Assembly (NCBI GenBank): GCA_963693365.1 | Contig: CAVNZM010000079.1 | Location: forward strand, 1 to 13,478 | Length of the DNA: 13,478 nt | Direction: 5' to 3' | From: Amoebidium appalachense | Lineage: Eukaryota; Protista; Ichthyosporea | In this document: positions 1 to 13,300 of the stretch, one piece after another | Numbering within the stretch: the stretch's first letter is position 1 | Layout of the letters: each line of letters opens with the position of its first letter | Program-made: the position numbers and the translations under genes | Notes under the pieces: model-generated | The model's database searches: none | What the model was told of the DNA's origin: nothing | What the model saw: the letters and a program-made list of their open reading frames with translations, nothing else

Positions 1-82
1 TTTACAACCATTGCAGGTTCACTTTCGTCCAAGGGGATGTCCCCCTAGAGGCAACACACGTCCCGGAGTAGTTTTTCATAGA
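1..82 (+). repeat. Left arm of long-range inverted repeat (may extend beyond the window start)
   Basis: The reverse complement of 1-82 matches 13220-13300 except for one base in the A/T run (ctatgaaaa[a]ctactccggga...gcaatggttgtaaa). Confidence 0.95.
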
Positions 83-742
83 CTAATTTTTATTTGTATA
101 CACTGACCTTTTCATATTCTTCTAACGGTCCTTCTTCCAAAAGGATCATGTAGTGATACTACATCGGATGACTGGGTTGCTATACTTGGAAGACTACTTC
201 AATGTTCCTTTATTTATAAATATATAAATAAATATTTACAAAAGTGAATTTCATATGTCTTTTATTTGATTTTAATATATATATATATATATTTATATTT
301 ATATAGATACCTACATATGCAAGAATGATACTGTAACATACGTATACATGTAGGTGCATGGTGTGTGGTGTGTGGGGTATGGAAAGTCGGTTTCTGTAGC
401 AACTCATCAACTCACCAATCAAATCGCGCGCATCCCGACAGTTTGAATAATGAAATTGCCGATGAAGTCATTGCAGTGATTTGATTGGATAGTCGGTGAG
501 TGCAACCCAACTCACTGATGGGAGCGCCTTCACAATTCGCTTTCAGCGCTACACAACTCTCGCGCTATGCACACACACACACAACACACACACACACACA
601 CACACTATTTGTAAGAATAAACACTGATGCACTGTGTGTGTGTGTGTGTGTGTGTGTGTGTGTGTGTGTGTGTGTGTGTGGTGTGGGGGGGGGGGGGGGG
701 GGGGGGGCTGTGGTGTAGGAAAGGATGGTAGGTTCAACTGTA
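83..742 (+). repeat. ~650-bp segmental repeat, copy 1 (AT-rich block + ~230-bp core + CA/TG tracts + G run)
   Basis: Near-identical to 2150-2794 from ctaatttttatttgtatacac to ggtaggttcaactgta. Confidence 0.95.
570..707. repeat. (CA)n - 28-bp spacer - (TG)n - poly-G
   Basis: Seen directly. The spacer ctatttgtaagaataaacactgatgcactg recurs at ~908-937 and ~2670-2698. Confidence 0.95.
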
Positions 743-935
743 TCTGTATCTGGTTATTGGTTCACATTAACGAGAGTTTATTCTTAAGTCTTGGATCAAA
801 TCCCTGCACTATGCCTGGAACTCTCTGATCGGTTCTGGGGACATCATCATTTTTCCGTCATTTACACAGAGCACCAGAGGTGGTTCGGGCGGATTGGTTT
901 GCTCGTTCTATTTGTAAGAATAAACACTGATGCAC

Positions 936-1189
936 TGTGTGTGTGTGTGTGTGTGTGTGTGTGTGTGTGTGTGTGTGTGTGTGTGTGTGTGTGTGTGTGT
1001 GTGTGTGTGTGGGTGTGTGGGTGTGTGCATGTGTGTGTGCGCGTGTGTATGTGTGTGTGTGTGTATGTGCGTGTGTGTGTGTGTTTGTGTGTATGTGTGT
1101 GTGTGGGTGTTTGTATGTGTGTTTAAGTGTTGTGTGTATGTGTGTATGTGCGTTTAAGTGTTGTGTGTATGTGTGTGTATGTCTGTGTT
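936..1189. repeat. (TG)n microsatellite decaying into degenerate TG-rich sequence
   Basis: Seen directly. Confidence 0.95.
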
Positions 1190-1393
1190 AACATAGTAAC
1201 GCGCATTGGCCGCTCCCATTGCTCCCGTGTTTTTATATTTTGCTGTGCTTTATTGTCGTTGCCTTTTACAACCATGGTTCTAGACCATATGCATGACCAA
1301 GAAAATTAATCACACAACCAATCAGACAATTGACAGCCCAACTGGCTGACAATTATTACGTCAATAGTTCAAAGCAATTGAAACAGAACACAC

Positions 1394-1810
1394 CTCCATC
1401 TCAACGGCAAAGTAGTTGCCAGTAGTGACCGACACCACGACTGGAACTTTATCACGACCCCTGAACATGGCGCGCACAAACTCGTTGTAGTTGCCATACC
1501 CCAACAGCCCAAAAATGGCGCGCCCAGAGATGGTCTCGGTGTTGTCATGCAGAAAGGGGTCCAGAAAGCGCAGCATCTTAGCAACCACATCGTCCCTTAC
1601 AGTACAGTGCATCCTCCCCACATGACTCTTGCCCGGAGCGTGCCCCGGAACATCCTGATTTGTTTGCTTACACCAAGCTCTGGACACAAGATCGAAAGCT
1701 ATCAAATTGACCATATATATGACAAAGAAAAACAAGGTTGCCAAAGATCATTGTAGCAGTGCCCAGCAGCTGCTCAAGCTCGGGGGTGATGGGGGGGGGG
1801 AACCGGCCTT
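1394..1810 (-). pseudogene. Disrupted paralogue of exon 1 of gene A (AntA-like domain fragment)
   Basis: TVRDDVVAKMLRFLDPF...RGRDKVP is 43/54 identical to gene A by my count. 1757-1810 encodes the upstream part (KAG..PITPELEQLLGT), separated by a ~155-bp insertion and a frameshifting C-run. It ends at a GAG|GTGTGT donor (1394/1393) equivalent to that of gene A. No start codon or exon 2 is visible. Confidence 0.85.
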
Positions 1811-2044
1811 GTGTGTGTGCGTGTGTGTGTGTGTGCATAGCGCTAGAGTTGTGTAGCGCTGAAAGCGAATTATGAAGGCGCTCCCATCAGTGAGTTGGGT
1901 TGCACTCACCGACTATCCAATCAAATCACTGCAATGACTTCATCGGCAATTTCATTATTCAAACTGTCGGGATGCGCGCGATTTGATTGGTGAGTTGATG
2001 AGTTGCTACAGAAACCGACTTTTCATACCCCACACACCACACAC
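1810..2044 (-). repeat. Inverted copy of the ~230-bp repeat core
   Basis: Reverse complement of ~361-595 and ~2421-2655. Confidence 0.95.
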
Positions 2045-2149
2045 ACATACATCTATATATATCATACACATATACATACAAGCGTACATATTTTTATACA
2101 TATGTATACTTATATACACATAATATATATATATACATTTCTTTGTATT

Positions 2150-10829: not shown

Positions 10830-10854
10830 GGCCTCTTCTGTTGGCATTTCAGTC

Positions 10855-11311
10855 TTTATATACACCTACATAATCATCAACAATAGCCGCTAAACATTGC
10901 GCGTTGTCTCGCGCGTGAGCTTTTGCAACCTTGTTTGTATTTGACAGGCCCGATGGCCCATGCCTACCTATCAAATGTGTAATAATCTTATCATGTCACG
11001 TGATAAAAAGCTGACCAATCAGATCGTTTGACATCTGATAATCACCCTTTGATCGCTGAGGAGAAAGGGGGGTTTATCGATCTTGTCTGATTAAATCGCA
11101 TTCCGTGGCGCGGCTTGCCCTGTAAATATTGTTTCAATAAACCCCACTGTTTTTGTCGCTTGTGGGAGATTTCCATGATGCAATGACATTTTTTAATTGA
11201 AGATTGGGTGACAGGCAAACGGTGTCACATGGACATCAACTCTCACCTCAATCGGTTTCGTTTGTTCACCTTTCGCTCACAGCGATTTCTCTTCACCCAC
11301 CCTTGCAAAAC
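10855..11311. promoter_or_regulatory. Divergent intergenic promoter region between genes C and D
   Basis: AT-richer spacer with a TATA box on the - strand, palindromic TCACGTGA at ~10996 and CCAATC at ~11015. Confidence 0.45.
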
Positions 11312-12490
11312 ATGAACGCCCCACTCCCCCACCCACTCCCCCCTCCCCTCCCTTCACCCCCAAAGCCCGTTGAAGGGTGTGAATGCACTCGTTGCACAGA
11401 CCTTCGCGTCTGTGACGGCTCTTCCGACGCGTGTGCCGTCTGCGGTTACCACAACACCCCGCATCTCAAGACGAAATCAAAACACTTCCCCGCCATCACC
11501 CATTTTGTTTGTGGCTGCGACCACTGCCTGACCCTTGCGGCAACAAGTGTTCCCCGTCTGTGTAGTTCGTGCTTCACCTCGCTGTCGACTCACTCTTCTC
11601 CCATGCCCGGCCTCCCCGGCTGCTGCGACACATGCCGTAGCGGCACCCACTGTGCCTTCCGCATCGCCCGTCGCACCCACAACTATATCAACACACAGCG
11701 TCGGCGGGCTTGGAATGCCGTCTACTCCCTGCTGACCACCATACCCGTCCCATGCACGTGCATACCCGACATCCCAGACCCCCTCCCCACCGCCCACCGC
11801 ATGGCCCCGCACAACCCTGCATGTGCCATGTGGCACGTTGGCTTCCCCGCTCCCGTGCCCGAATGTGCCTCCCCCGTCTGTGCATGCACACACTACCGCA
11901 ATGCGGAGGCCTTTCTCGCTCACATGTGTGCGGGTCGCCTGCGCCACCTTGTCACTGACATGTACACCCCCGCCCTCGAATACTGCCCCTTGTGCAGCTG
12001 CCGCCGCCGCCCAGCTTCGCCCGGCACACCCCAGGCCTACGTGGCCGCCGACCTCCCCCTCCGCTTCCATTCCTGTCCTTGTCCACACTGCGTGCACGTC
12101 TTTGCACGCCCTGCCACCGTGCTCGTGTGTGCCGACTGCCACACACTCGTCCTGCAGCATCAGCATGGTGTGGACGGCTGCGCGAGGAGGCTTGTTGGCC
12201 GTAGACGACAGCTGCGACCGGGTTTGGCCCCCCGAAGACTTGTTCCTGCCCCACAAGCCCACACAAACACCCATTTCTCTCCCCAAACCCCACCATGCAC
12301 ATCTCTTCCACCAAGCCCATACCCATCCCCAAGCCCGCTCACACCGCCTGTTAAAGATACTGTATGCAAGAATTTAGAAGTTGAAGATCCCAACTCCCCC
12401 CAGGGTGAGTGGTTGTGGATGCTTTTCCCCTCTGGGTGGCAAAATGTGTGGGTGCCGGCCACCCCGGGCACCCCGCAAAATAAATCGTGA
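11312..12490 (+). CDS. Gene D: Cys/His-rich putative multi-zinc-binding protein (392 aa) with Pro-rich ends
   Basis: Uninterrupted ORF starting aacATG at 11312, with many CxCxxC/CxxC motifs and a Trp-rich tail (GEWLWMLFPSGWQNVWVP). No family recognised. Confidence 0.7.
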   Translation: MNAPLPHPLPPPLPSPPKPVEGCECTRCTDLRVCDGSSDACAVCGYHNTPHLKTKSKHFPAITHFVCGCDHCLTLAATSVPRLCSSCFTSLSTHSSPMPGLPGCCDTCRSGTHCAFRIARRTHNYINTQRRRAWNAVYSLLTTIPVPCTCIPDIPDPLPTAHRMAPHNPACAMWHVGFPAPVPECASPVCACTHYRNAEAFLAHMCAGRLRHLVTDMYTPALEYCPLCSCRRRPASPGTPQAYVAADLPLRFHSCPCPHCVHVFARPATVLVCADCHTLVLQHQHGVDGCARRLVGRRRQLRPGLAPRRLVPAPQAHTNTHFSPQTPPCTSLPPSPYPSPSPLTPPVKDTVCKNLEVEDPNSPQGEWLWMLFPSGWQNVWVPATPGTPQNKS

Positions 12491-12512
12491 AGACTTGGCA
12501 TCTGTACATCTG

Positions 12513-13140
12513 TACACACACACACCACACACACACACACACACACACACACACACACCACACACATGCACACCACACACACACACCACACACACACACA
12601 CCACACACACACCACACACACACACCACACACATGCACACCACACACATGCACACACACACACACACACCACACACACACCACACACACACACCACACAC
12701 ACGCATACGCACCACACACACCACACACACCACACACACACACCACACACACCACACACACCACACACACCACACACACACACCACACACACCACACACA
12801 CCACACACACACACCACACACACCACACACACCACACACACCACACACACACACCACACACACCACACACACCACACACACACACCACACACACCACACA
12901 CACCACACACACCACACACACACACCACACACACACACACACACACCACACACACCACACACACCACACACACACACCACACACACCACACACACCACAC
13001 ACACCACACACACACACCACACACACCACACACACACACACACACACACACCACACACACCACACACACACACCACACACACACAGTCACCACACACACA
13101 CACACACACACACCACACACACACACCACACACACGCATA
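12513..13140. repeat. Compound CA satellite built from C(CA)n units, mostly 9 and 13 bp
   Basis: accacacac / accacacacacac arrays with a few catg interruptions. Confidence 0.95.
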
Positions 13141-13219
13141 CGCACATGCATGTTTCAGATACGTCCAAGTGTGGTTATGTATTGACTTTTATTCAATCTT
13201 GCTGTCGTTGAGTCTCGCT

Positions 13220-13300
13220 TCTATGAAAACTACTCCGGGACGTGTGTTGCCTCTAGGGGGACATCCCCTTGGACGAAAGTGAACCTGCAATGGTTGTAAA
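13220..13300 (-). repeat. Right arm of long-range inverted repeat
   Basis: Reverse complement of 1-82. Confidence 0.95.

What the first reader, a model, noticed from the sequence alone, without database searches (positions are those of the whole stretch)
1..13300. Inverted-repeat-bounded ~13.3-kb cassette of intron-containing, virus-like nuclear regulators
Seen: near-perfect ~82-bp inverted arms enclose genes with Pol II promoters, spliceosomal introns and CA-satellite spacers. Known: AntA-like and Bro-N domains are typical of phages and large eukaryotic DNA viruses, not of core eukaryotic genomes. Inference: this is a fragment of an endogenised or domesticated large DNA virus, or the cargo of a large mobile element. 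No mobility or capsid gene is present, so it would be non-autonomous or part of a bigger element.
Basis: partly seen in the sequence, partly recalled or inferred. Interest (0 to 1): 0.8.

Follow-up and report, generated by a model that had tools for sequence, protein, structure and literature searches.

The report
Virus-like genes between inward-facing repeat ends
The matching ends are tips of a very abundant repeat whose fixed edge faces inward, so they are likely not the borders of a mobile cassette; the DNA between them holds an undescribed, intron-containing gene family that is probably multicopy and probably virus-derived.

Summary
The arms are real: 1-82 against 13220-13300, one indel. 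They are not a private 82-bp pair. In public contigs the repeat continues outward to at least 13478. Its sharp edge is the inner one, where many unrelated sequences join. An 89-bp core has two alternative outward continuations. Both window junctions have arm-free paralogous forms. This polarity argues against terminal repeats of a 13.3-kb cassette. The arms are likely ends of abundant linear minichromosomes (Amoebidium-type mitochondrial layout) or inward-facing transposon ends.

The interior is genuine eukaryotic-style DNA. Genes A and B are paralogues with phase-0 GT-AG introns; a third copy is broken. Their N-terminal domain is weakly AntA-like (profile E=0.001); Bro-N was not supported. 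The shared helical C-terminal domain matches no family. Seven homologues were found, two in Daphnia-labelled assemblies, none a named cellular gene. The interior assembles even in runs of 1-3 Mb, which hints at high copy number. No capsid, polymerase or integrase was found. The host is unidentified.

Verdict: observation largely confirmed, cassette model not supported, virus-like origin plausible but unproven.

The parts
1..82 (-). Left arm: truncated copy of the high-copy repeat core; its fixed edge is at 82, facing the interior
83..742 (+). Copy of the non-coding module 2150-2794 (95%), starting exactly at the arm; the internal copy is the arm-free form of this junction
   Evidence: X1 contig at 83 carries the internal-copy upstream sequence
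1361..1790 (-). Broken third paralogue of gene A exon 1 (5' truncated and interrupted)
   Evidence: 82% DNA identity 1458-1594 to 5689-5826
1810..2062 (-). Inverted third copy of a CCAAT-rich module (344-596, 2404-2655)
2150..2794 (+). Internal copy of the non-coding module
3276..4247 (+). ORF of 323 aa (start uncertain): acidic N-terminus, weak BAG-like stretch, basic C-terminus
   Evidence: Pfam BAG E=0.022 whole, 0.002 on the excised stretch, below the cut-off
4384..4732 (.). 50-bp minisatellite, 7.4 copies
5581..5883 (+). Gene A exon 1: first half of the AntA-like domain
   Evidence: 49% to P0002, 21% to P0006
5884..6177 (+). Gene A intron, GT-AG, phase 0, with two TGACGTCA and CCAAT-box words
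6178..7167 (+). Gene A exon 2: rest of the AntA-like domain, Ala-rich linker, family-specific helical domain, basic tail
8464..9231 (+). Gene B exon 1; its last ~75 codons align to gene A exon 1
   Evidence: hhalign E=0.02
9232..9817 (+). Gene B intron, GT-AG, phase 0, CA-rich 33-bp repeats; contains a 51-aa hydrophobic ORF at 9653-9808
9818..10540 (+). Gene B exon 2, distant paralogue of gene A exon 2
   Evidence: family HMM E=3e-6 among 252 window ORFs; hhalign E=2e-4
10518..10829 (-). Gene D: 103-aa basic Lys/Pro-rich ORF with TATA and GCCATGG start, 69-bp dimer, four Cys
   Evidence: no Pfam
11312..12490 (+). Gene C: 392-aa Cys/His-rich orphan (33 Cys, 23 His), predicted metal-binding
   Evidence: 0 of 4075 candidates; Atlas best 0.82, lead only
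13220..13308 (+). Right arm: full 89-bp repeat core; fixed edge at 13220, facing the interior
13309..13478 (+). Outward continuation of the repeat (one of two types), still very deep and breaking into variants

Best explanation
The window joins two things: the tips of a very abundant repeat whose fixed edge faces inward, likely the ends of linear minichromosomes, and between them a likely multicopy, probably virus-derived gene cluster that also occurs without those tips. Shown: an 89-bp core with two outward continuations; many different sequences at its inner edge; arm-free forms of both junction regions; three paralogues of one orphan family, two of them with GT-AG introns. Inferred: the repeat is the terminal inverted repeat plus 5'/3' orientation sequences of a multipartite linear genome, like the mitochondrial chromosomes of the ichthyosporean Amoebidium. 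Such ends were joined end-on to one copy of the cluster, either in the cell (end-joining, NUMT-like) or as a library or assembly chimera, and the contig breaks inside the repeat on both sides. Inferred function: genes A and B encode DNA-binding regulators (AntA-like head, helical interaction domain, basic tail) driven by host Pol II promoters. The cluster is non-autonomous cargo that spreads by duplication or with a larger element outside the window.
For: Polarity: 9 of 17 loose-end rows shown and 7 of 13 attach unrelated sequence at the inner edge, while the outward sequence stays shared. Two continuations after 13308 occur in X16 and X20; in X16 the core contig has depth 5234 and the window-type continuation 2949. 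This layout matches the ITR plus 5'/3' IOS described for Amoebidium (PMC2518934, passages). In X16 the terminal contigs total depth 4512 and listed continuations only 138, or 3%. Arm-to-interior contig depth is 1.3-2.9 in X1, 37-117 in X4, 38-86 in X2 and 400-455 in X16, which hints at separate molecules. Arm-free forms: X1 contig at 83; X4 and X2 contigs leave at 13190 for 255 and 173 letters with no joint to the arm. Interior: 8 of 9 listed runs of sample S1, each 1-3 million letters, hold 63-78% of its words. Two homologues lie in Daphnia-labelled assemblies, and Amoebidium lives on freshwater arthropod cuticle (PMC11244446 section 6).
Against: The host was not identified, and no whole genome is held. 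No mitochondrial gene or RNA was seen next to the repeat, which is 51% GC. Contig depth is not copy number, library types are not on record, and X2 and X4 arm depths are sums of overlapping variant contigs. Graph cleaning can remove weak branches and mimic a free end (recalled). Viral origin rests on one weak domain match (E=0.001; Pfam threshold not reached). Introns and microsatellites are host-like, whereas Amoebidium viral insertions are described as intron-poor.
Confidence: 0.45

Rival explanations
1. The arms are the inward-facing 89-bp terminal repeats of two copies of an abundant nuclear DNA transposon or MITE that inserted on either side of one chromosomal copy of the gene cluster; the contig ends inside both copies.
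For: Same polarity evidence. One shared core with two continuations fits left and right element ends. The flanks look AT-rich, and the left junction cuts a duplicated module like a filled site against an empty site. Contigs often break in repeats (general knowledge).
Against: The arm-to-interior depth ratio varies more than 100-fold between runs. Only 3% of terminal depth has a listed continuation in X16. The terminus TCTATG fits no superfamily signature that I recall. The two X16 flank contigs have depth 56 and 82, above the interior's 11-13.
Confidence: 0.3
2. One reading: the 13.1 kb is one segment of a multi-segment linear virus or plasmid, or a non-autonomous cassette, whose segments all share long terminal repeats (over 260 bp) that serve in replication.
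For: The arms are symmetric. A sharp inner edge with many different interiors is also what shared segment ends would give. Other flank contigs are deep in X16 (56, 82). The arm-to-interior ratio is about 2 in X1. The interior looks high-copy.
Against: Arm-free forms of both junction regions are present at high depth (X1 depth 43 at 83; X4 depth 989 at 13150-13190). Ratios of 40-450 in three other runs would need tens to hundreds of segments. The left flank is a truncated duplicate of an internal module. No replication gene was found.
Confidence: 0.15
3. The interior is an ordinary fast-evolving host gene cluster, expanded by local duplication, and the AntA likeness is chance; the arms are an assembly effect.
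For: Introns, CCAAT/TATA promoters, microsatellites, GC3 0.64-0.85. A BAG-like stretch is eukaryotic in type. No family threshold was reached and there were no hits in viral contigs.
Against: Homologues are few, unnamed and patchy. The AntA alignment is collinear over 88 columns, and 1 of 500 shuffles scores as well. The interior assembles in runs of about 1 Mb at depth 27-60.
Confidence: 0.1

Closest known systems
Amoebidium parasiticum multipartite linear mitochondrial chromosomes (ITR plus 5'/3' IOS), as described in PMC2518934
   Same: One terminal core shared by many molecules, two alternative subterminal continuations, very high depth, most depth apparently ending at one edge.
   Different: No mitochondrial gene was seen, the host is unidentified, and here the presumed free end is fused to nuclear-type DNA. 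The published terminal sequence could not be compared.
Giant endogenous viral elements, adintoviruses and Plavaka giant repeats of Amoebidium (PMC11244446)
   Same: Repetitive clusters of genes with no cellular orthologues, apparently variable in abundance.
   Different: Those are intron-poor and carry capsid, PolB, VLTF3, transposase or tyrosine recombinase genes. This cluster has introns and microsatellites, and none of those genes in the window.
AntA/AntB antirepressor domain (PF08346); related KilA-N and Bro-N domains of phages and large DNA viruses
   Same: Collinear profile match over 88 columns; Atlas lead to an AntA cluster at 0.83; tendency to form multigene families. Antirepressor and bro genes occur in insect large DNA viruses (PMC4411684, passages).
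   Different: Below the Pfam threshold, split by a phase-0 intron, and fused to an undescribed helical domain instead of KilAC/ANT.
TIR DNA transposons, MITEs and composite elements
   Same: Core repeat with two end types, variable flanks, filled and empty site pattern.
   Different: The ends face the interior, so the interior is flank and not cargo; no transposase or target-site duplication was seen.

Membership tests
TIR-bounded mobile cassette (13.3 kb) | Inverted repeats whose outer edge abuts variable flanks | tested here: not met
   Variable sequences join at the inner edge; the outward sequence is shared
TIR-bounded mobile cassette (13.3 kb) | Target-site duplication and empty site around the whole unit | not testable with these tools
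   No genome held; the window starts inside the arm
TIR DNA transposon (the repeat itself) | Transposase or target-site duplication at whole copies | not testable with these tools
   Only 259 bp of the repeat is in the window; loose ends show 30 letters
Polinton/adintovirus | PolB, capsids, integrase, packaging ATPase | tested here: not met
   None among 11 ORFs scanned in Pfam, PHROGs and NCBIfam; DNA outside the window not seen
Giant endogenous viral element (NCLDV) | Core genes (MCP, A32, D5, VLTF3, PolB) | tested here: not met
   window only; a fragment without core genes is not excluded
Giant endogenous viral element (NCLDV) | Intron-poor, hypermethylated block | tested here: inconclusive
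   2 of 5 intact ORFs have predicted introns; methylation not testable
AntA (PF08346) | Pfam gathering score | tested here: not met
   0 of 9 alignment members and 0 of 11 window ORFs; the domain is split by the intron in the window, but intact in P0006
AntA (PF08346) | Collinear profile-profile match across the domain | tested here: inconclusive
   E=0.001, probability 21%, 88 columns; 1 of 500 shuffles as good. The profile came from 49 close phage sequences
AntA / KilA-N / Bro-N fold | Structural match of the N-terminal domain | tested here: inconclusive
   pLDDT mostly under 60 there; no Foldseek match at E 0.001
Bro-N (PF02498) | Profile match | tested here: inconclusive
   E=0.2 over 26 columns; 34 of 500 shuffles as good; narrow profile of 29 sequences
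Amoebidium-type mitochondrial chromosome end | Shared terminal core with two orientation-specific continuations | tested here: met
   89-bp core and two continuations in X16 and X20
Amoebidium-type mitochondrial chromosome end | Free physical end at the core's edge | tested here: inconclusive
   3% of terminal depth continues in X16, but contigs cannot show an end
Amoebidium-type mitochondrial chromosome end | Mitochondrial genes beyond the continuations; identity to published termini | not testable with these tools
   No such sequence held; searches gave nothing
Spliceosomal intron (gene A) | GT-AG ends, frame kept, homologue collinear across the site | tested here: met
   P0006 is uninterrupted; P0002 breaks in homology at the same place
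Death-fold domain (C-terminal domain) | Six-helix fold match well above background | tested here: inconclusive
   Z 4-5.4, rmsd 3.2-4.6, 79-91 aligned; top row unrelated at Z 6.3

The most novel reading that the evidence does not exclude
The interior is part of an undescribed, high and variable copy, possibly extrachromosomal virus-derived replicon of an animal relative. Its genes have become fully host-like (introns, Pol II promoters, microsatellite-and-palindrome module borders), and it can be joined in the cell to the ends of a many-chromosome linear genome, or shares those ends as one segment of a segmented linear replicon.
Probability: 0.18. Interest if true: 0.8.

Novelty: new variant of a known kind. 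Interest (0 to 1): 0.45.

Why it matters
If the interior is a multicopy virus-derived cluster, it shows antirepressor-like viral regulators that gained spliceosomal introns and host promoters yet stayed repetitive, unlike the intron-poor viral insertions described in close relatives of animals. It also defines a new protein family with a foldable, unassigned helical domain. The arm result is a practical warning: symmetric inverted repeats at contig ends can be the tips of an unrelated abundant molecule and not the borders of an element.

Tried and rejected
No whole genome held.

Junction cover: no cover at 13194-13215 in 4 of 4 runs laid. No listed contig bridges 82/83 in X1, X2 or X16, and X4 is unresolved. 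The tool warns that a hole proves nothing, so this is not counted as evidence. No RNA holder listed; not evidence on expression.

Arm pattern: 0 matches in viral, metagenome and genome contigs and in plasmids. No unusual fold (z -0.13 and -0.57). Rfam gave 22 matches, all below gathering score and over microsatellites; no tRNA.

Related loci: none for gene A or its alignment in viral or metagenome contigs, and none for the BAG-like ORF. No homologues for gene C (0 of 4075) or gene B exon 2 (0 of 674); only near lengths were searched. The BAG-like ORF and gene D had no large protein search. P0006 against phages gave only E 3-7.

Structure: the single-sequence fold was unusable (pLDDT 39). Foldseek found nothing. 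PDB sequence searches found nothing. Bro-N as a separate label for gene B was dropped in favour of paralogy with gene A. A Helitron end was considered and dropped because two end types share the core (recalled features).

Literature: ten searches found no description of this family or these termini; the one motif hit was absent from that paper's main text. The original Amoebidium mtDNA paper was not read. Earlier scan findings: five answered look-ups by place, sequence and words plus one more by words, all empty.
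Full report
Observation. The window starts with 82 bases that are the reverse complement of 13220-13300 apart from one base in an A-run. Between them lie five intact ORFs, one broken paralogue and long CA/TG tracts. The first 2.8 kb is a mosaic: 83-742 repeats 2150-2794 at 95%, and 344-596 recurs inverted at 1810-2062. The window's odd length suggests it is a whole contig; that is inference. No genome is held.

The arms. I laid public contigs on 13150-13478 (X4, X2, X16, X20) and on 1-560 (X1, X4, X2, X16). 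The repeat does not stop at 13300: it stays very deep to 13478, and contigs run past position 1. Its sharp edge is the inner one, at 13220 and 82. There, 9 of 17 shown loose-end rows and 7 of 13 attach unrelated sequence. A core of 89 bp (13220-13308) is followed outward by the window's sequence or by a second type, in X16 and X20. In X16 the core has depth 5234 and the window type 2949. A cassette bounded by terminal repeats would show the variable edge on the outside, so the 82-bp cassette-border reading fails.

Both junction regions also exist without the arm. The left flank begins exactly inside a duplicated module, and an X1 contig there carries the internal copy's upstream sequence. X4 and X2 contigs leave the right flank at 13190 as a diverged variant and run on for 255 and 173 letters with no joint to the arm. 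Arm-to-interior contig depth is 1.3-2.9 in X1, 37-117 in X4, 38-86 in X2 and 400-455 in X16. In X16 only 138 of 4512 terminal depth has a listed continuation. These are hints only: contig depth is not copy number, library types are not on record, X2 and X4 arm values are sums, and graph cleaning can mimic a free end.

What the repeat could be. A shared terminal core with two orientation-specific continuations is the layout described for the several hundred mitochondrial chromosomes of Amoebidium parasiticum (PMC2518934, passages; PMC8303319, one passage; the original paper was not read). Two homologues of gene A lie in Daphnia-labelled assemblies, and Amoebidium was isolated from freshwater arthropod cuticle (PMC11244446 section 6), so those contigs may come from an associated protist. 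That step is untested. No mitochondrial gene, RNA family or tRNA was found beside the repeat. Inward-facing transposon ends explain the same polarity and remain the main rival.

The genes. Gene A (5581-5883, 6178-7167) has a 294-bp phase-0 GT-AG intron. Exon 2 found 1 hit among 7997 candidates and 7 among 1.84 billion representatives. P0006 is an uninterrupted full-length homologue, which may be intronless DNA or mRNA. P0002 matches both exons and breaks in homology at the same place. None has a functional name. Gene B (8464-9231, 9818-10540; intron 586 bp, phase 0) is a distant paralogue: family HMM E=3e-6 among 252 window ORFs, and exon-wise hhalign E=2e-4 and 0.02. A third, broken copy lies at 1361-1790 on the minus strand.

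Domains. No Pfam, PHROG or NCBIfam threshold was reached for 11 of 11 ORFs or 7 of 7 homologues. The Atlas gave AntA, KilA-N and Bro-N clusters at 0.81-0.83, a lead only. With profiles built from Pfam-confirmed phage AntA (49 sequences) and Bro-N (29) proteins, the family aligned to AntA over 88 columns at E=0.001, and 1 of 500 shuffles scored as well. Bro-N gave E=0.2 and 34 of 500. A plain HMM search of the 260 targets gave nothing under E=1. The C-terminal domain folds as a helical bundle with pLDDT mostly 78-92; many of its top matches are death folds at Z 4-5.4, which is inconclusive. The other ORFs are a weakly BAG-like protein, a Cys/His-rich orphan and a small basic protein. No capsid, polymerase, ATPase, integrase or transposase was detected.

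Copy number. Twenty of 24 listed runs hold 5200-12500, from 4 named studies plus 8 rows without a study. Eight of 9 runs of sample S1, with only 1-3 million letters each, hold 63-78% of its words. In X1 (1.08 million letters) interior contigs have depth 27-60. This suggests high copy number or strong enrichment; one holder may be the window's own source.

Mechanism. Most likely the cluster is non-autonomous, virus-derived cargo that encodes DNA-binding regulators under host promoters and grows by duplication of modules bordered by CA tracts and TAGCGCT palindromes (15 matches against 0.44 expected, partly from the triplicated module). One copy became flanked by two ends of an unrelated abundant repeat, in the cell or in the library, and the assembly stops inside that repeat. 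The anatomy and polarity are shown; the identity of the repeat, the viral origin, DNA binding, splicing and mobility are inferred.

Comparison. It resembles the repetitive virus-derived blocks of Amoebidium, but those are intron-poor and carry hallmark genes (PMC11244446: abstract, passages, sections 6 and 15, text search of 2 supplements; figures and picture pages not seen). Antirepressor and bro genes are known in insect large DNA viruses (PMC4411684, passages). Passages of PMC11286789 and PMC6299612 added nothing decisive. It is not filed as a Polinton, a giant-virus insertion or a TIR cassette.

Verdict. Observation mostly confirmed; cassette model not supported; virus-like multicopy family plausible. 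Interest 0.45; most novel reading 0.18 likely, worth 0.8 if true.

Noticed in passing
window 545, 1838, 1854, 2605, 2620, 5176, 7181, 7211, 7318, 7609: TAGCGCT(A) palindrome, 15 matches against 0.44 expected, close to CA/TG tracts at module edges; a 34-bp block containing it precedes both genes A and B (5167-5200, 7600-7633). Possible binding or recombination site.
   Followed up: partly
window 5884-6177 and P0002 residues about 100-260: Intron A has two TGACGTCA plus CCAAT words, and a piece of it recurs at 780-847. The non-homologous middle of P0002 has repeated DVT words that such DNA would encode, suggesting a conserved regulatory intron read through by the annotation.
   Followed up: partly
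P0007 (EFX61890.1): The family's C-terminal tail is joined to a domain with a His..Asp..Gln..Cys pattern, recalled as typical of CE-clan cysteine proteases such as those of Polintons; no Pfam or PDB match.
   Followed up: partly
window 9653-9808: 51-aa ORF inside intron B with a hydrophobic stretch and a PPPPY motif, GC3 0.65; possible nested membrane micro-protein.
   Followed up: no
window 10518-10829 (-): Small basic Lys/Pro-rich ORF with TATA and strong start context, divergent from gene C; H1-tail-like composition.
   Followed up: partly
window 338-373 joined to 183 in X1 and X4: Contigs show a rearranged form of the left module with 17 other letters between (table 5c), so more variants of the module exist.
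   Followed up: no
window 13226, run X2: One loose end contains pieces of the repeat core itself, partly inverted; possible fold-back or end-to-end product.
   Followed up: no
window 13367-13443: A second block of the repeat appears about as deep as the core in X16 and X20, suggesting modular subterminal structure.
   Followed up: no
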